From a virus: a stretch of 64,000 bases of DNA. Shown here in pieces: positions 23,610-28,722 of the stretch. The position numbers were made by a program, and so were the translations under genes. The notes under the pieces are model-generated. The model ran no database searches and was not told where the DNA came from. It worked only from the letters and a program-made list of their open reading frames with translations. The stretch lies in the IMG/VR virus record IMGVR_UViG_3300034103_001442, positions 87,741 to 151,740 of that record; one strand, given 5' to 3'. The stretch's first letter is position 1; each line of letters begins with the position of its first letter.

Positions 23610-23682
23610 GGTAGCGGAGCCGAGAGTTGCACTCGGAATTGAGGATTATGAGTCCTCTGTGATGCTGTTTCACTACCCCGCA
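23610..23682 (-). tRNA. tRNA-fMet-like (CAT)
   Basis: TGCGGGG..., anticodon arm GAGGA-CTCATAA-TCCTC, 1:72 mismatch; ends ACC(G). Confidence 0.8.
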
Positions 23683-23687
23683 ATAGA

Positions 23688-23921
23688 TCACTTCTCGCAC
23701 TTGTCCAGCAAGTAGGCTTTCGCAGTACGTAATTCTGAGTTTGACAAAGAACCATCGTTGTTCTTGTCTGCTCTTTCAAAAAGTTTTGCATCAACATCGC
23801 AATAACGGTTGAGGTCTTCAAGTGTTACCTTACCATCTTGATCAAAATCGTAAATTGATACACGGTCAACTGCCAATGCTGGTGTTGATGCGAGAGCGAG
23901 TGCTAGAATAAACTTCTTCAT
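23688..23921 (-). CDS. secreted EF-hand protein
   Basis: Signal peptide ending ALA; DFDQDGKVTLED and DKNNDGSLSNSE loops. Confidence 0.8.
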   Translation of the reverse strand: MKKFILALALASTPALAVDRVSIYDFDQDGKVTLEDLNRYCDVDAKLFERADKNNDGSLSNSELRTAKAYLLDKCEK

Positions 23922-24334
23922 TTTGTGATTTCTCCAATTTTCTTATAACCGTTACCAGTGGGATGTATGCCATCTTTTGATAGGGATGGAATCCTAATAA
24001 TCCAATCACCATACATCTCCGCAATACTTTCTACATACTCTTGAATTCTGACGATAGGGATTTCGCTAGTCTTTGCATTACCAGCAGGAAGAATCCAGTA
24101 TACCGTTTCTGCTTGTACTCGTTCGCGCAGTTTAAACAGTTCCTTTTCAGTCTTAATGTACTTGTGGTCATTACTACCAAGACTGATTACAACAATCCTA
24201 CCAGCAAATTTTTGCGGATACTTTTTGTTGAATTGTGTGGTATTGATTCCACTCGTAGCATAAGCCACACACTCGGGGCGAGCCTGTGCAGTGCCAACAG
24301 CAATACTATCACCCAAAATCAAACAGTCAATCAT
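23918..24334 (-). CDS. SGNH/GDSL hydrolase
   Basis: GDSIAVG, SLGSND, DGIHP. Confidence 0.85.
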   Translation of the reverse strand: MIDCLILGDSIAVGTAQARPECVAYATSGINTTQFNKKYPQKFAGRIVVISLGSNDHKYIKTEKELFKLRERVQAETVYWILPAGNAKTSEIPIVRIQEYVESIAEMYGDWIIRIPSLSKDGIHPTGNGYKKIGEITK

Positions 24335-24517
24335 ATTTCTTTTTTATGCCAATAATTTGGTATACGACAAAATGTCGCACACTTACTTATATAGAATCAG
24401 CCCTTTTTTTGGCTCTTTCTATTAATTTTTTTACCCTGACCGAAAATGCGCTCCCAGTTTTTGTCAAACTGTTTTTTTGGGATGCTCAACGGTCTTTGTT
24501 TACTACCTTTGGACATA

Positions 24518-25090
24518 TCAATTTTTCCAAACACGACTGTTCTTTGGGATACTCGCCATCAAGTATTCCATTTGATCAGCGAGCACCTTACGATTTTTCA
24601 GTAGTATACGTTCATGCACAGTTGGTGCATATGGAACATAGATCAAATGCATCTTGGCTTCTTCTGGTGTACGGTTGCCTTTACGATGATTACATGAACG
24701 GCAAGCAGTGACACAGTTAGTCCACTGATTTGTACCGCCTCGGGATTTCGGATGAACATGGTCAATCGTCAATTGGCTTGATGAAAACTCATCACCACAG
24801 TATGCACAAATATGCCAGTCACGAGCATACAACGTCATTCGATCAGCAAATTTGGTTTGTTGATTGTAAAACTTATCACCAAGCAATGGACCACTGACAC
24901 CGATGATTGAAGAAATATCAATGCGTGATTGCTCGCCAAAATTGTTACGCCCACCAAACATGGACTTCACTTTGGTTCCCAATTCCCACAACACTTTTTC
25001 TTTTGCGTAATAACAAGCAGCCATTTCAAAATTCACCCAGTCTTTGGGCATGCCGCCTTTATCAACAACCAATACCAGTGACACAATCAA
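24518..25090 (-). CDS. HNH endonuclease (McrA-like)
   Basis: RD..CAYCG, TIDHVHPKSRGG, W.NCVTAC.SCN..KG. Confidence 0.9.
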   Translation of the reverse strand: MIVSLVLVVDKGGMPKDWVNFEMAACYYAKEKVLWELGTKVKSMFGGRNNFGEQSRIDISSIIGVSGPLLGDKFYNQQTKFADRMTLYARDWHICAYCGDEFSSSQLTIDHVHPKSRGGTNQWTNCVTACRSCNHRKGNRTPEEAKMHLIYVPYAPTVHERILLKNRKVLADQMEYLMASIPKNSRVWKN

Positions 25091-25223
25091 CTCCTACCAG
25101 TGATGGATAATATTTGCTATGATAAAAATACAAGTTACGATTTCTAGGGCACGGATACACCACCAAATAACTGGTGTATGTTTTTCAACTTTTCTACTAT
25201 ATCTAGTGATCATATTTTATTTA

Positions 25224-25307
25224 TGGTGCCCAGAAGAGGACTCGAACCTCCATGCCTTTCGACGGCAGATTCTAAGTCTGCTGTGTATACCATTCCACCA
25301 TCTGGGC
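25224..25307 (-). tRNA. tRNA-Leu(TAG)
   Basis: Cloverleaf, GCAGA-CTTAGAA-TCTGC, CCA. Confidence 0.92.
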
Positions 25308-25318
25308 GTTTTAAATTT

Positions 25319-25408
25319 TGGCGGAAGCGGAAGGATTCGAACCTTCGTGTCCCGTTAAGGACTGCTTGTTTTCAAGACAAGTGCGATCAACCACTCTGCC
25401 ACGCTTCC
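25319..25408 (-). tRNA. tRNA-Ser(TGA)
   Basis: CTTGT-CTTGAAA-ACAAG, long variable arm, CCA. Confidence 0.92.
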
Positions 25409-25420
25409 AAAATTTTATTC

Positions 25421-25738
25421 CTACGAATTTATCTTATAATACTCTTTCATGATAAAAAAGTCAAGCGCCTTAACAATCTTGCTAATCCTATAGGACTGAT
25501 TGTCACCTGCCGCTTGACGTGTTTGATGGTTTACTAGATGTAACTCATAAACCAAATCTTCAAATGTAATACTTTTGTTTCTAATTTTCCGTAGTATTTC
25601 ACGGTATTGTTCCGCGTATTGATATACTTCTTTGTTGTATGAAATACCACTAGCAGATGCACCTTTGTTATCAAGCGCATCGCAAAGCATATCAACATGC
25701 GGCTGTAAATCTTCGAACCGTAATTTCTTTTGTGTCAT
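25421..25738 (-). CDS. hypothetical protein within tRNA array
   Basis: ORF track; AT-rich. Confidence 0.5.
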   Translation of the reverse strand: MTQKKLRFEDLQPHVDMLCDALDNKGASASGISYNKEVYQYAEQYREILRKIRNKSITFEDLVYELHLVNHQTRQAAGDNQSYRISKIVKALDFFIMKEYYKINS

Positions 25739-25743
25739 AAAAT

Positions 25744-25817
25744 TGGAGCGGGATGCGAGAATCGAACTCGCGCGTAAACCTTGGCAAGGTTTCAGGCTAC
25801 CATTACATCAATCCCGC
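25744..25817 (-). tRNA. tRNA-Gly(GCC)
   Basis: AAACC-TTGCCAA-GGTTT, CCA. Confidence 0.92.
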
Positions 25818-25829
25818 ATAAATAGTTAT

Positions 25830-26006
25830 ATGGAAATATCGAATGTAAAAGAAAATAGTTTGATACAAGGTAATTTAGTCGAAAAACCTAAACCTGTACC
25901 GCAAGTACCTTCCGAGTCCAGTTTACTCTCAACACCGCCAGAAGAAATTCAAAAAAATATAGAGCGTTGGAGAGAGTTTAATGAACGCATACATGTAGTT
26001 GTTTAA
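25830..26006 (+). CDS. small hypothetical protein antisense to tRNA operon
   Basis: MEISNVKE...; CATAAATA just upstream; fills the tRNA spacer. Confidence 0.4.
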   Translation: MEISNVKENSLIQGNLVEKPKPVPQVPSESSLLSTPPEEIQKNIERWREFNERIHVVV

Positions 26007-26008
26007 AA

Positions 26009-26083
26009 TGGTGCGCGATGAGAGGGTCGAACTCCCGACATTTGCCGTGTAAAGGCACTACTCTACCACTGAGTTAATCGCGC
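26009..26083 (-). tRNA. tRNA-Val(TAC)
   Basis: TGCC-TTTACAC-GGCA, CCA. Confidence 0.9.
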
Positions 26084-26084
26084 A

Positions 26085-26381
26085 TTAATTCGTCAACACT
26101 CTATATAGACCATAAGTGTCTACAATAGTCAATAGCAAATAATTAGCAAACATACCAAAACTATTTCGTGTCCATGCCGCCCAAGCATACATGGCGCAAC
26201 CACTCATCCAAAATGGATATAACAATTTGAGTGGTGGATCGGGAACAGTTACAGCCATAGCAACGGTGCAACCGATACTGATAATCCAAGCGATCACTTC
26301 AACGCAAAATCTAAACGGATACGATTGATAATCGGTTTTCGCCCAATTCCATGTATCAACCATTGCTTTTTTGATAATCAT
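26085..26381 (-). CDS. small membrane protein
   Basis: About three hydrophobic segments; GAGGG SD. Confidence 0.7.
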   Translation of the reverse strand: MIIKKAMVDTWNWAKTDYQSYPFRFCVEVIAWIISIGCTVAMAVTVPDPPLKLLYPFWMSGCAMYAWAAWTRNSFGMFANYLLLTIVDTYGLYRVLTN

Positions 26382-26394
26382 AGTTCCCTCAATT

Positions 26395-26470
26395 TGGCGC
26401 GCTCGGCAGGATTCGAACCTGCGTATATCTGCTTAGAAGGCAGATGCCTCATCCACTAGACTACGAGCGC
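26395..26470 (-). tRNA. tRNA-Arg(TCT)
   Basis: TCTGC-CTTCTAA-GCAGA, CCA. Confidence 0.92.
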
Positions 26471-26471
26471 A

Positions 26472-26545
26472 TGGAGCAGAGTAGGAGAATCGAACTCCTT
26501 TGACCAGCTTGGAAGGCTGGGACACAACCAATATGCCAACTCTGC
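26472..26545 (-). tRNA. tRNA-Gly(TCC)
   Basis: CCAGC-CTTCCAA-GCTGG, CCA. Confidence 0.92.
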
Positions 26546-26552
26546 GTAACAC

Positions 26553-26637
26553 TGGTGCGACTGGTCGGACTTGAACCGACATGGCTAACGCCGACAGATT
26601 TTAAGTCTGTTGTGTATACCGATTCCACCACAGTCGC
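26553..26637 (-). tRNA. tRNA-Leu(TAA)
   Basis: ACAGA-CTTAAAA-TCTGT, CCA. Confidence 0.92.
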
Positions 26638-26642
26638 GAAAA

Positions 26643-26719
26643 TGGTCGGACAGAGAGGATTCGAACCTCCGACCCTCTGCTCCCAAAGCAGATGCACTAC
26701 CAGGCTGTGCTACTGTCCG
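26643..26719 (-). tRNA. tRNA-Pro(TGG)
   Basis: TCTGC-TTTGGGA-GCAGA, CCA. Confidence 0.92.
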
Positions 26720-26727
26720 ATTTATAC

Positions 26728-26756
26728 ATTATAAGTTAGTGATGAAATAAAGTCAA
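26728..26756 (-). promoter_or_regulatory. internal sigma70-like promoter of tRNA array
   Basis: TTGACT-17-TATAAT. Confidence 0.75.
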
Positions 26757-26757
26757 G

Positions 26758-26834
26758 TGGTGCGCCCACTAGGACTTGAACCTAGAATCAACAGATTATG
26801 AGTCTGCTGCATTAACCAATTATGCTATAGGCGC
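26758..26834 (-). tRNA. tRNA-CAT (probably Ile2; Met not excluded)
   Basis: CAGA-CTCATAA-TCTG, CCA. Confidence 0.85.
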
Positions 26835-26838
26835 GAAA

Positions 26839-26913
26839 TGGAGTTGCGGACTGGACTCGCACCAGCATAGAACAGTTTTGCAGACTGTCGCCTAACTTCT
26901 CAGCCACCGCAAC
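26839..26913 (-). tRNA. tRNA-Cys(GCA)
   Basis: ACAGT-CTGCAAA-ACTGT, U73, CCA. Confidence 0.88.
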
Positions 26914-26986
26914 AAAATTTACTGATCGGTAAAATTTTGTTAACAATAATTAACAATGTCAAAAAATTTACTGATCGGGAAAATTT
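26914..26986. repeat. two copies of a near-palindromic 23-bp element
   Basis: AAAATTTACTGATCGG(T/G)AAAATTT at 26914 and 26963. Confidence 0.8.
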
Positions 26987-27061
26987 GGTAGCAACGGTTG
27001 GACTCGAACCAACGATAAACTCCGTATGAAGGAGGTGCATTAGCCACTATGCTACGTTGCC
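26986..27061 (-). tRNA. tRNA-Met(CAT), elongator type
   Basis: CTCC-TTCATAC-GGAG, CCA. Confidence 0.88.
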
Positions 27062-27063
27062 AT

Positions 27064-27150
27064 TGGCGGAAGGCAGTGTACTCGAAACACATTCCCAAAG
27101 GGAACCATCTGTTTAGCAAACAGCGACAGATCCTCTCTGCTTTACCTTCC
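27064..27150 (-). tRNA. tRNA-Ser(GCT)
   Basis: CTGT-TTGCTAA-ACAG, long variable arm, CCA. Confidence 0.88.
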
Positions 27151-27155
27151 TAAAA

Positions 27156-27232
27156 TGGCGACTCGGATGGGACTTGAACCCACGACCTCATGCGTGACAG
27201 GCATGTGAACTAACCAACTGTTCTACCGAGCC
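27156..27232 (-). tRNA. tRNA-Asp(GTC)
   Basis: CATGC-CTGTCAC-GCATG, CCA. Confidence 0.92.
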
Positions 27233-27236
27233 AACT

Positions 27237-27313
27237 TGGTGGGACAAGATGGATTCGAACCATCGACCTCAGTCTTATCAGGACTGTGCGCTAACCAACT
27301 GTGCCATTGTCCC
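27237..27313 (-). tRNA. tRNA-Ile(GAT)
   Basis: CAGTC-CTGATAA-GACTG, CCA. Confidence 0.92.
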
Positions 27314-27319
27314 GAATAA

Positions 27320-27406
27320 TGGTGGGAAAGGAAGGATTCGAACCTACTCAGCCGATTGGCGACAGATTTACAGTCTGTTGTGACTCTCCAACTTCACCGC
27401 TTGCCC
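27320..27406 (-). tRNA. tRNA-Tyr(GTA)
   Basis: ACAGA-CTGTAAA-TCTGT, CCA. Confidence 0.92.
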
Positions 27407-27415
27407 ACATAAACT

Positions 27416-27489
27416 TGGCTGAGGCGCATGGATTCGAACCACGATAAGCAGGATCAAAACCTGCTGTCCTGCCGTTAGACGACGCCTCA
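27416..27489 (-). tRNA. tRNA-Gln(TTG)
   Basis: GCAGG-TTTTGAT-CCTGC, CCA. Confidence 0.92.
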
Positions 27490-27497
27490 AAAATAAA

Positions 27498-27717
27498 ATG
27501 CTTCCCCCTGCAGGCGGTTTTTGTCGTCCCACCACAAACACTTATGTGGTATCCGCATCCCAACACAGGGAGATTGTCGTATTGCCAACGCTGAACTTCA
27601 TCAGGGAGATCACTATGGGAATCCAACCCATTTCTCATCATGCGTGTCGCACTAGCCATTGGATTCATGGCACGTTATGATAGCCGACACGTACATTGCT
27701 GCAGAGGTGTCGGGCAT
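27498..27717 (-). ncRNA. putative 220-nt structured ncRNA between tRNA-Ala and tRNA-Gln
   Basis: Closing helices ATGC/GCAT and CCTCTGCAG/CTGCAGGGG; several hairpins; complementary loops. Confidence 0.65.
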
Positions 27718-27721
27718 ATTT

Positions 27722-27796
27722 TGGTGGAGGATGAGAGAATCGAACTCTCAACTCTGCGATGCAAACGCAGCGTGTTCCCATTAGCACTAATCCCCC
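27722..27796 (-). tRNA. tRNA-Ala(TGC)
   Basis: CTGCG-TTTGCAT-CGCAG, G3:U70, CCA. Confidence 0.92.
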
Positions 27797-27801
27797 AATA
27801 A

Positions 27802-27955
27802 GGTGTGGGCTACCATTTAAGGTTTGTTCTTAATCCTTACCCCCACACAGCAAGGTTGCGATCCGTTCTGCCTCATAATTCGATCAGTGCTACCGAAACG
27901 GATAAGCCCTTACACTGATAGGATGAACCCGACAGAGCGCGCCTGCAGGTCACCA
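27802..27955 (-). ncRNA. putative pseudoknotted ncRNA between tRNA-Asn and tRNA-Ala
   Basis: ATCAGTGT/GCACTGAT, TCTGTC/GGCAGA, ATCCGTT/AACGGAT, GTGTGGG/CCCACAC. Confidence 0.55.
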
Positions 27956-27958
27956 AGA

Positions 27959-28033
27959 TGGCTGGCGAGGATGGGATCGAACCATCGACAGGCTGATTAA
28001 CAGTCAGCTGATCTACCTCTGATCTACTCGCCA
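27959..28033 (-). tRNA. tRNA-Asn(GTT)
   Basis: GCTGA-CTGTTAA-TCAGC, CCA. Confidence 0.92.
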
Positions 28034-28045
28034 AAAAAATTAAAC

Positions 28046-28120
28046 TGGCTCCCCGATACGGACTCGAACCGCAACCAACAGTTTTGGAGACTGCGATGCT
28101 ACCAATTACACCATCGAGGA
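28046..28120 (-). tRNA. tRNA-Trp(CCA)
   Basis: GCAGT-CTCCAAA-ACTGT, CCA. Confidence 0.9.
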
Positions 28121-28132
28121 ACAATCACAATA

Positions 28133-28208
28133 TGGTGAGACCACTGGGACTCGAACCCAGAACTTACGAGTTAAAAGCACGTTACTCTACCAGTTGAGTT
28201 ATGGTCTC
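28133..28208 (-). tRNA. tRNA-Lys(TTT)
   Basis: ACGTG-CTTTTAA-CTCGT (one mismatch), CCA. Confidence 0.9.
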
Positions 28209-28222
28209 AAATTCATAATATA

Positions 28223-28297
28223 TGGTGAACCCAAGGGAATTCGAATCCCTATTCCATCCGTGAAAGGGATGTGTCCTAACCGTTAGACGATGGGTCC
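28223..28297 (-). tRNA. tRNA-Glu(TTC)
   Basis: CATCC-CTTTCAC-GGATG, CCA. Confidence 0.9.
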
Positions 28298-28303
28298 GCA
28301 AAA

Positions 28304-28385
28304 GGTGCTGGTTACTCATCCAGCGTCACAATGTGCTTCGGGGTGACAGTCTCCGCTGCTACGAACTTCTGATAGCAGTCAGGTT
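28304..28385 (-). ncRNA. putative three-hairpin small RNA between tRNA-Thr and tRNA-Glu
   Basis: CTGCTA/TAGCAG, GTCAC/GTGAC, GCTGG/CCAGC + ACC. Confidence 0.45.
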
Positions 28386-28389
28386 AAAT

Positions 28390-28465
28390 TGGTGCCTTCA
28401 GAGAGACTCGAACTCCCAACCTACTGATTACAAATCAGTTGCACTACCAATTGTGCTATGAAGGC
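28390..28465 (-). tRNA. tRNA-Thr(TGT)
   Basis: ACTGA-TTTGTAA-TCAGT, CCA. Confidence 0.92.
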
Positions 28466-28469
28466 AAAA

Positions 28470-28722
28470 CCTTGATACCTGCCCCAACTCCCGCAGATAT
28501 CGGTGGCTTCCCGCATACAAGTATGCATCGAAACCTTACCCAGTGTCCTATAATTTTAAACAACTTTTTGCCGCTTGGACAAAAATTCCTGCTTACCTAA
28601 TACAGGACGGTCTTTTCGTAACCGTGGCTCTCAACCGCCGAACTTCGCTATCGGTGCGCCTGTATGCGCTTATGATACAGGTCAAGTTGTTGGTGGGTAA
28701 GTAACCTTACCTCATCCAACAT
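28470..28722 (-). ncRNA. putative multi-hairpin ncRNA(s) forming the leader of the tRNA operon
   Basis: Seven or more short helices directly after promoter 28730-28761; no ORF in track. Confidence 0.55.

What the first reader, a model, noticed from the sequence alone, without database searches (positions are those of the whole stretch)
27498..27717. 220-nt highly structured non-tRNA RNA with complementary loops inside the tRNA operon
On the minus strand the ends pair (ATGC/GCAT; CCTCTGCAG/CTGCAGGGG). Internal helices are CGTGTCG/CGACACG, CTGA/TCAG, GTTG-GCAATA-CGAC, TCCC/GGGA, and GCGG/CCGC enclosing TACCACA/TGTGGTG. Two hairpins, GCCAT-GAATCCA-ATGGC and ATGGG-TTGGATT-CCCAT, have complementary loops (kissing loop or switch). 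It is GC-richer than other spacers and would be released by processing of the flanking tRNAs. Large ncRNAs such as GOLLD and ROOL lie near phage tRNAs, but this one is much shorter and I cannot assign a family.
Basis: partly seen in the sequence, partly recalled or inferred. Interest (0 to 1): 0.8.

Follow-up and report, generated by a model that had tools for sequence, protein, structure and literature searches.

The report
New double-pseudoknot RNA in phage tRNA operon

Summary
The gap between tRNA-Ala and tRNA-Gln (window 27490-27721, minus strand) encodes a conserved structured RNA.

- **No known family.** It matches no Rfam family. On its own it folds no better than shuffled sequence (z = -1.6).
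- **Homologues.** I found them in 13 other IMG/VR contigs of T4-like phages. All lie inside tRNA arrays on the tRNA strand, and most lie between tRNA-Ala and tRNA-Gln.
- **Covariation.** On the 13-row alignment, 97% of cells pair and 23 of 37 pairs carry compensatory double changes (0 of 500 shuffles).
- **Two tertiary contacts also covary.** The other is a pseudoknot between the hairpin 2 loop and the strand after hairpin 3.
- **What it is not.** It is not a tRNA, a T4 rnaC/rnaD homologue, a Y RNA, or a GOLLD/ROOL RNA. An antisense ORF is also excluded.
- **Best reading.** tRNA processing most likely excises a free, compact RNA. Its function is unknown, and a ribozyme or decoy role is not excluded.
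- **Distribution.** None was found in cultured phages or, in a truncated pattern scan, in bacterial genomes.
- **Earlier notes in this scan.** The scan appears to have found the same family before on other DNA (e1-5667968).

The parts
27490..27721 (-). Whole spacer between tRNA-Ala (27722-27796) and tRNA-Gln (27416-27489); the RNA gene with its 5' extension
   Evidence: ARAGORN and Rfam tRNA calls; G+C 0.48
27489..27680 (-). Conserved core of the family (match to covariance model R2, positions 1-193)
   Evidence: 168.5 bits, E 1.7e-54, the only copy in the window; alignments A5 and A6
27684..27713 (-). 5' extension hairpin P0 (CCGACAC / GUGUCGG), loop with invariant CCUCUGCAGCAAUGU; shared only with L132 and L134
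   Evidence: Alignment A7: stem becomes CCGAAGC/GCUUCGG, 2 compensatory pairs; pair probability 0.9
27655..27671 (-). Hairpin 1: GCCAU-GAAUCCA-AUGGC
   Evidence: All 5 pairs have compensatory changes, 100% paired
27640..27652 (-). Hairpin 2: GUGC-GACAC-GCAU; its loop gives the 5' strand of pseudoknot 2 (27644-27646)
   Evidence: 3 of 4 pairs compensatory; pseudoknot counts
27632..27639 (-). Near-invariant single-stranded junction GAUGAGAA
   Evidence: Identical in 11 of 12 rows of A9
27615..27631 (-). Hairpin 3: AUGGG-UUGGAUU-CCCAU (T-arm-like in this member only)
   Evidence: Compensatory changes in the outer pairs; own tRNA model matches only this hairpin, 6.3 bits, E 1.8
27660..27665 (-). 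Kissing helix PK1, 5' strand AAUCCA (loop of hairpin 1), pairing with UGGAUU at 27620-27625
   Evidence: A9 columns 17-21 with 58-62: 85% paired, 4 of 5 pairs compensatory, 0/500 shuffles, slid controls 0-1
27620..27625 (-). Kissing helix PK1, 3' strand UGGAUU (loop of hairpin 3)
   Evidence: per-lineage loop pairs
27611..27613 (-). Pseudoknot PK2, 3' strand GUG after hairpin 3, pairing with CAC in the hairpin 2 loop (27644-27646)
   Evidence: A9 columns 35-38 with 126-129: 91% paired, 3 of 4 pairs compensatory (ACCC:GGGU, GUCC:GGAC, CAC:GUG)
27591..27604 (-). Hairpin 4: CUGA-UGAAGU-UCAG
   Evidence: All 5 family pairs have compensatory changes; the two outer pairs are not formed in the window
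27578..27590 (-). Hairpin 5: CGU-UGGCAAU-ACG, invariant 7-nt loop, followed by conserved CGAnAAUC
   Evidence: U:A to C:G in 6 of 12 rows; loop invariant
27503..27573 (-). 3' domain: long-range helix UCUCCCUG (27566-27573) / CAGGGGGA (27503-27510), inner GCGG/CCGC (27553-27556 / 27514-27517), and variable hairpin UACCACA/UGUGGUG (27530-27551)
   Evidence: Helix 7: 6 of 11 pairs compensatory, 99% paired; helix 8: 98% paired. The variable hairpin is replaced or absent in other members
27499..27505 (-). Near-invariant 3' motif GGAAGCA, followed by a U-rich tail up to the 5' end of tRNA-Gln
   Evidence: Alignments A6 and A9

Best explanation
The spacer is a gene for a compactly folded non-coding RNA. 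The conserved core is about 185 nt, and the whole gap with its 5' hairpin is 232 nt. The RNA belongs to a family that no searched catalogue lists and that was found only in uncultured aquatic T4-like myophages.

Shown here:
- The RNA has five local hairpins and a long-range 3' helix.
- It has two tertiary pairings: a kissing helix between the loops of hairpins 1 and 3, and a pseudoknot between the hairpin 2 loop and the strand after hairpin 3.
- All of these are maintained by compensatory substitutions.
- Three near-invariant unpaired motifs accompany them: GAUGAGAA, the UGGCAAU loop, and GGAAGCA.

Inferred:
- The RNA is transcribed with the tRNAs.
- It is released as a discrete molecule by RNase P cleavage at the 5' end of tRNA-Gln and by 3' maturation of tRNA-Ala.
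- It then acts as a free, stable RNA whose conserved unpaired motifs bind a protein or RNA partner during infection, much as is assumed for the unexplained stable RNAs of the T4 tRNA cluster.

The partner and the benefit to the phage are unknown.
For: - **Family.** Homologues were found by conserved-block pattern scans of IMG/VR.
- **Model scores.** 11 full or near-full matches score 96-223 bits with model R2, and a twelfth is a broken copy at 41 bits.
- **Position.** In every locus the element lies in a tRNA array on the tRNA strand. It follows tRNA-Ala in most loci, including the window.
- **Minimal borders.** In L110 it fills exactly the 162 nt between two tRNAs.
- **Secondary structure.** 97.4% of cells pair against 83% in shuffles. 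23 of 37 pairs carry double changes against 12.3 +/- 2.0 (0/500). Slid controls pair at 35-55%.
- **Kissing helix.** 4 of 5 pairs are compensatory, 0/500 shuffles.
- **Second pseudoknot.** 3 of 4 pairs are compensatory.
- **Strand.** G:U pairs in several helices fit the tRNA strand only.
- **Composition.** G+C is like the tRNAs and unlike most spacers.
- **Homing endonuclease.** One relative carries a NUMOD3 homing-endonuclease gene inserted inside the element. Such genes typically target conserved genes; segB sits in the T4 tRNA cluster.
Against: - No expression data exist.
- The family is absent from many related T4-like contigs that have full tRNA arrays, so it is dispensable for the wider group.
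- The alignment has only about six independent lineages, so shuffle statistics overstate significance.
- Nothing here distinguishes a trans-acting RNA from a cis-acting or catalytic one.
Confidence: 0.6

Rival explanations
1. It is a catalytic or cis-acting processing element. This could be a new self-cleaving ribozyme, or a dedicated nuclease site, that helps cut the polycistronic tRNA precursor. The HDV-like theta ribozymes that sit directly after tRNAs in gut phages are a precedent.
For: The double-pseudoknot fold with near-invariant unpaired nucleotides is typical of ribozymes. In L129, L121, L130 and L110 the element starts 0-1 nt after the CCA end of the upstream tRNA. The precedent is Kienbeck et al. 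2024, PMC10879173.
Against: No Rfam ribozyme family matches, even at E<=10. GAUGAGAA resembles the hammerhead core but has no stem II, and the closing pair of hairpin 3 is not the required A:U in all members. In the window, L118, L123, L132 and L134, 43-420 nt separate the tRNA from the element, so a fixed cleavage role at the tRNA 3' end does not fit.
Confidence: 0.15
2. It is a tRNA-derived mimic. Hairpins 1, 2 and 3 would descend from the D, anticodon and T arms. The kissing helix would replace the D-loop/T-loop elbow. The RNA would act as a decoy or ligand for a factor that recognises tRNA shape, such as a tRNA-cleaving defence nuclease or a processing enzyme.
For: The order of three hairpins with a first-to-third loop contact matches tRNA topology. 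In the window, hairpin 3 is T-arm-like and is followed by AGUGAUCUCC, which resembles a tRNA 3' end. tRNA profile HMMs hit that spot, with only 1 of 200 shuffles reaching a similar score. ARAGORN calls a pseudo-tRNA there at its laxest setting.
Against: The Rfam tRNA model gives nothing at E<=10. My own tRNA model matches only the hairpin, at 6.3 bits and E 1.8. The T-loop likeness is peculiar to the window; other members have GUGAUG, UAAUU or AUCAUGA loops. No acceptor stem is conserved.
Confidence: 0.12
3. It is junk: decayed remains of duplicated tRNA genes, or scars of homing-endonuclease traffic, with hairpins left by chance.
For: The gap is about three tRNA lengths. Relatives L060 and L079 have Thr-Met-Asp between Ala and Gln. 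Folding energy is unremarkable. The arrays are heavily rearranged.
Against: Compensatory changes keep 8 helices and 2 tertiary pairings across lineages that are only 54-73% identical. Unpaired motifs are invariant.
Confidence: 0.03
4. It is a small protein gene on the opposite strand (window 27498-27680, plus strand, 60 codons from ATG).
For: An antisense frame stays open over most of the element in nearly all members.
Against: All three antisense frames are largely open at once, so this reflects base composition. The longest frame differs between members. Most members have no ATG. Indels are not multiples of three; for example, the 3' variable hairpin is absent in L110, L133 and L134. Substitutions follow base pairs, not codons. 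All neighbouring genes are on the other strand.
Confidence: 0.02

Closest known systems
Phage T4 stable RNAs species 1 and 2 (rnaC 139 nt, rnaD 119 nt) in the T4 tRNA cluster
   Same: Both are non-tRNA RNA genes inside a T4-type phage tRNA cluster, on the tRNA strand and abutting tRNA genes (T4 annotation). Function is unknown in both cases. rnaC carries a T-arm and rnaD begins AUGAGAAAC + hairpin + UAAG, which recalls the family's GAUGAGAAA + hairpin 3 + UAGG.
   Different: There is no detectable homology. Model R2 with filters off finds nothing significant in the T4 cluster or in the whole T4 genome, and nhmmer finds nothing. The folds differ: no double pseudoknot is known for the T4 RNAs. 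Neither T4 RNA is in Rfam.
GOLLD and ROOL (large ornate RNAs often beside phage or prophage tRNAs)
   Same: They are orphan, elaborately folded RNAs that tend to sit next to tRNA genes in phages (Kretsch et al. 2025, PMC12286853, listed).
   Different: They are three to four times larger. Rfam's models, searched as part of the whole library, give no match at the gathering score or at E<=10.
Bacterial and phage Y RNAs (YrlA)
   Same: YrlA is a small RNA with a tRNA-like module and a paired stem. Some are phage-encoded (Chen et al. 2014, PMC4201824).
   Different: YrlA lies beside a Ro60/Rsr (TROVE) gene, and none is in this 151-kb record. Its module order is T arm, acceptor-like stem, D arm. 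No Rfam match was found.
HDV-like theta ribozymes after phage tRNAs
   Same: They are structured RNAs directly downstream of phage tRNA genes with a nested double pseudoknot (PMC10879173).
   Different: The strand order of the HDV fold (P1-P2-P3-P1-P4-P2) does not match this RNA. No Rfam HDV-type model matches. The distance from the tRNA varies.
Uncatalogued structured RNAs in phage tRNA arrays noted earlier in this scan (e1-5667968, e1-5377343 and others)
   Same: e1-5667968 and e1-5667980 share short words with the main-group sequence. They describe the same ACCC loop/GGGU pseudoknot and a CGC/GCG hairpin, so they are very probably the same family on another genome.
   Different: These are AI notes, not publications. 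I could not align their sequence here.

Membership tests
tRNA (Rfam RF00005) | Cloverleaf match at or above the gathering score (29 bits) | tested here: not met
   No tRNA match in the spacer at E<=10. My own model from the window's 18 tRNAs matches only hairpin 3, 6.3 bits, E 1.8. ARAGORN calls it only at -ps70.
T4 rnaC / rnaD | Sequence and structure homology to the T4 RNAs | tested here: not met
   R2 with filters off over the T4 cluster gives a best score of 4.6 bits elsewhere. Nothing in the whole T4 record. nhmmer finds nothing.
T4 rnaC / rnaD | Non-tRNA gene within the tRNA cluster, co-oriented with and abutting tRNAs | tested here: met
T4 rnaC / rnaD | Accumulates as a discrete stable RNA in infected cells | not testable with these tools
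GOLLD / ROOL / Drum / wcaG and other Rfam 15 families | Covariance-model score at or above the family's gathering score | tested here: not met
   Window: only tRNAs at gathering, and chance C/D-box hits at E 0.45-8.9. L129 member: best hit is wcaG at 18.3 bits against a gathering score of 42.
Y RNA (YrlA) | Adjacent or co-resident Ro60/Rsr (TROVE) gene | tested here: not met
   PF05731 is absent from the 151,740-bp record, while the control genomes are positive.
Known self-cleaving ribozyme classes | Match to a class model or its conserved core | tested here: not met
   No Rfam hit. The hammerhead-like GAUGAGAA lacks stem II.
Known self-cleaving ribozyme classes | Self-cleavage activity | not testable with these tools
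   Needs an in vitro assay.
The new family defined here (model R2) | Full-length match to the family covariance model | tested here: met
   Window 27489-27680(-): 168.5 bits, model positions 1-193. Note that the window is one of the training rows.
The new family defined here (model R2) | Kissing helix, second pseudoknot, and the GAUGAGAA, UGGCAAU and GGAAGCA motifs | tested here: met
   Window: AAUCCA:UGGAUU (6 bp), CAC:GUG (3 bp), and all three motifs present.
The new family defined here (model R2) | Position in a tRNA array on the tRNA strand, downstream of tRNA-Ala | tested here: met

The most novel reading that the evidence does not exclude
The family is a new functional RNA class with an activity of its own. 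It could be a new self-cleaving or tRNA-processing ribozyme. It could instead be an RNA decoy that neutralises a host factor aimed at tRNAs. Its double-pseudoknot core and invariant unpaired nucleotides would form the active or binding site.
Probability: 0.15. Interest if true: 0.85.

Novelty: new variant of a known kind. Interest (0 to 1): 0.58.

Why it matters
Phage tRNA clusters have been known since the 1970s to hold stable non-tRNA RNAs (T4 species 1 and 2) whose purpose is still unknown. This finding adds a well-defined, covariation-backed family with a complex fold to that unexplained class. It shows that such RNAs are conserved under selection in uncultured aquatic T4-like phages.

The two pseudoknots and the three invariant motifs give precise handles for mutagenesis, structure work and partner hunting. 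If the RNA proved catalytic or anti-defence, it would be a new RNA function. Together with earlier notes of this scan, it also suggests that tRNA arrays are a rich and under-annotated source of phage RNA genes.

Tried and rejected
**Searches that found no homologues**
- blastn of the spacer and of a main-group member against 50,697 cultured-phage records: no match.
- Exact 17-mers of hairpins 1 and 3 in IMG/VR: chance hits only.
- A degenerate two-hairpin pattern: none in IMG/VR and 4 chance hits in metagenome contigs.
- 80 loci around clamp-loader (gp44) relatives: tRNA arrays but no homologue.
- Small ORF 26085-26381 as bait: it gave a close relative (L106, 83% nt identity), but that contig starts inside the array.

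**What worked**
- A 20-mer of the flanking tRNA-Gln led to L110.
- Conserved blocks from the window/L110 alignment then found the rest.

**Other negative or unavailable results**
- The genome contigs pattern scan gave 119 hits, all chance by nhmmer (12.7 bits or less).
- Fremin et al. 2023 catalogue of IMG/VR candidate RNAs (PMC10690425): no supplement is held, so overlap cannot be checked.

**Readings considered and dropped**
- Pseudo-tRNA.
- Hammerhead, C/D-box or K-turn.
- T-box-like GGGUGGU: present in the main group only.
- SRP-like GGAAGCA.
- A pairing of the strand before hairpin 4 with the hairpin 4 loop: inconsistent across lineages.
- Intrinsic terminator or promoter inside the spacer.
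- Antisense ORF.

Full report
**Context.** The window is part of a 151,740-bp IMG/VR virus record. PHROGs matches to gp43, gp44, gp46, gp41, gp23, gp18 and gp17 homologues mark it as a T4-like myovirus. Its major capsid protein is at most 64% identical to cultured phages; the nearest are Pelagibacter phage Mosig, Stenotrophomonas phage DLP_6 and Methylophilales phage Melnitz. On the minus strand, 23610-28465 holds 22 tRNA genes, nearly all with an encoded CCA end. The finding is the 232-nt gap 27490-27721 between tRNA-Ala and tRNA-Gln.

**Observation.** The gap has 48% G+C, like the tRNAs (52%) and unlike most spacers (7-40%). Three other gaps (94, 162 and 92 nt) are equally GC-rich.

Folding alone is not persuasive. 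The minimum free energy is -73.2 kcal/mol, with z = -1.58. The opposite strand gives z = -1.11, and the central cloverleaf-like part gives z = -0.28. No Rfam family matches at the gathering score or at E<=10.

**First lead: a decayed tRNA?**
- ARAGORN at its laxest setting calls a pseudo-tRNA at 27608-27681.
- Hairpin 3 is T-arm-like, and the following bases resemble a tRNA 3' end.
- tRNA profile HMMs hit that spot, with only 1 of 200 shuffles reaching a similar score.
- However, a covariance model built from the window's own tRNAs matches only the hairpin, at 6.3 bits and E 1.8. A weak tRNA-Ser(GCT) at 27064-27150 scores 16.1 bits with the same model.
- The comparative data below show that the T-loop likeness is peculiar to this one member.

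**Finding relatives.** Direct searches failed. A 20-mer from the neighbouring tRNA-Gln retrieved contig L110. Its 162-nt gap between tRNA-Cys and tRNA-Tyr aligns with positions 46-232 of the spacer and already showed compensatory changes. Two pattern scans built from the conserved blocks (GAUGAGAAA, UGGCAAUnCGA, AAUC, GGAAGCA) then retrieved L117, L118, L121, L123, L125, L129-L135.

In every locus the element lies within a tRNA array on the tRNA strand. It usually follows the order Asn - gap - Ala - element - Gln - Tyr, as in the window. Members are 54-73% identical to the window and fall into about six lineages:
- the window
- a main group (L110, L118, L121, L123, L129, L130)
- L117
- L132
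- L133
- L134

**Structure.** RNAalifold on the 13-row alignment A6 predicts 37 pairs, 23 of them with double compensatory changes. Counted independently:
- 97.4% of cells pair, against 83.0 +/- 1.0% in shuffles.
- 23 pairs carry changes on both sides, against 12.3 +/- 2.0 (0/500).
- Sliding the 3' partners by 1-3 columns drops pairing to 35-55%.

The supported helices in the window are hairpin 1 (27655-27671), hairpin 2 (27640-27652), hairpin 3 (27615-27631), hairpin 4 (27591-27604) and hairpin 5 (27578-27590, with the invariant loop UGGCAAU). A long-range helix UCUCCCUG/CAGGGGGA, with an inner GCGG/CCGC, encloses a variable hairpin.

The first 45 nt form an extra hairpin (CCGACAC/GUGUCGG) that only L132 and L134 share. 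There it reads CCGAAGC/GCUUCGG, which is two compensatory pairs.

**Tertiary pairings.**
- In a common column register of the model-based alignment A9, the loop of hairpin 1 pairs with the loop of hairpin 3 as follows: AUCA:UGAU (main group), AAUCCA:UGGAUU (window), AAUUA:UAAUU (L133), UGUUA:UGACA (L134, with one G.U), and UCAU:AUGA plus an A:U pair (L132).
- Counts for this helix: 85% paired, 4 of 5 pairs compensatory, 0/500 shuffles, and slid controls give 0-1 such pairs.
- It reads ACCC:GGGU (main group and L134, where the model alignment misplaces the 3' strand behind an insertion, so I read it by eye), GUCC:GGAC (L117, L132, L133) and CAC:GUG (window). It is 91% paired, with 3 of 4 pairs compensatory.
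- Three unpaired motifs are nearly invariant: GAUGAGAA, UGGCAAU and GGAAGCA.

- CGTGTCG/CGACACG and TCCC/GGGA conflict with helices that covary.
- GTTG/CGAC is in the wrong register.
- CCTCTGCAG/CTGCAGGGG competes with the covarying long-range helix. It could still be an alternative state in the three lineages that have the 5' hairpin, because its loop CCUCUGCAG is invariant there. With no variation, this cannot be tested here.

**Rivals excluded or weakened.**
- Antisense ORF: all three antisense frames are open, no start codon is conserved, and indels break the frame.
- T4 rnaC/rnaD: similar context and one similar short motif, but no match to the family model.
- Y RNA: no TROVE gene.
- Known ribozymes, GOLLD, ROOL: no model match. 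The best stray hit is wcaG at 18.3 bits against a gathering score of 42, on L129 only.
- Junk: incompatible with the covariation.

**Distribution.**
- None in 50,697 cultured-phage records by blastn.
- None in the four nearest cultured phages or in T4 by covariance model.
- None confirmed among 119 pattern hits in bacterial genomes, in a truncated scan.
- Absent from more distant T4-like contigs with full arrays.
- One copy in the window.

**Mechanism.** The fold and its selection are shown. Three steps are inferred.
- *Co-transcription with the tRNAs:* the strand is the same, there are no internal promoter or terminator signals above chance, and the G:U pairs fit that strand.
- *Excision by tRNA maturation:* the borders coincide with tRNA ends in L110, and the U-rich tail runs up to the next tRNA.
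- *Action as a free RNA through its invariant unpaired motifs.*

A catalytic or decoy role is not excluded. A NUMOD3 homing-endonuclease gene interrupts the element in L133, next to a partial duplicate of its 5' part. This fits a conserved gene that serves as a homing target, as with segB in the T4 cluster.

**Novelty.** No searched catalogue holds the family. It may be among the unnamed candidates of Fremin et al. 2023, which I could not check. This scan has very probably met it before on another genome (e1-5667968), and it has repeatedly met other uncatalogued RNAs in phage tRNA arrays. I class it as a new variant of a known kind: orphan stable RNAs of phage tRNA clusters.

Noticed in passing
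window 27797-27958 (minus), between tRNA-Asn and tRNA-Ala: This 162-nt GC-rich gap is also conserved in the same relatives (L118, L121, L123, L129, L130), with long identical blocks and a kept UUCCGUU/GAACGGAA pairing. It is probably a second RNA gene flanking tRNA-Ala. Only 2 of 21 predicted pairs covary so far (A8).
   Followed up: partly
L133:3085-3747 (minus), with L133:3779-3823: A 220-aa ORF with NUMOD3 motifs (Pfam 4.9e-10) and a GIY-YIG-like N-terminus is inserted inside the RNA gene, just after GAUGAGAAG. A main-group-like partial 5' copy lies upstream. The ORF's stop codon lies in the hairpin 1 loop of the complete downstream copy.
   Followed up: partly
window 27064-27150 (minus): Probable extra tRNA-Ser(GCT) missed at default settings: ARAGORN finds it at -ps90, and my own tRNA model gives 16.1 bits, E 0.003. 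tRNA-His and tRNA-Phe remain unfound in the array.
   Followed up: partly
L129:1296-1380, and the same place in L118, L121, L123: In main-group relatives, a further conserved module of about 80 nt lies between this RNA and tRNA-Gln. It is closed by CUGGAUG/CAUCCAG and ends CAC-UUUU. The window and L110 lack it.
   Followed up: no
L085:10005-10175 (also L087, L090, L091): In unrelated large phage contigs, a 416-nt gap between tRNA-Gly and tRNA-Thr ends in the same 17-mer T-arm followed by CCGCCUC-UACC. That segment pairs with GAGGCG about 150 nt upstream, giving a tRNA-like acceptor/T-arm domain with a large insert. ARAGORN and Rfam do not call it.
   Followed up: partly
L017:15867-16089, L045:18592-18810, L007:10088-10194: The GC-rich gaps before tRNA-Gln in more distant relatives contain tRNA-Tyr-like sequences (CUGUAAA anticodon loop...CCACCA end) that ARAGORN did not report.
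   Followed up: no
window 28298-28389 and 28466-28720 (minus): The 92-nt gap between tRNA-Thr and tRNA-Glu (50% G+C) and the leader upstream of the array are further GC-rich, hairpin-rich stretches with no tRNA or Rfam match.
   Followed up: no
L105 (phage T4) 5054-5172 (minus): T4 rnaD starts AUGAGAAAC-CCGG(loop)CCGG-UAAG, much like the family's GAUGAGAAA-hairpin 3-UAGG. The family model does not match it, so this is either chance or very remote kinship.
   Followed up: partly
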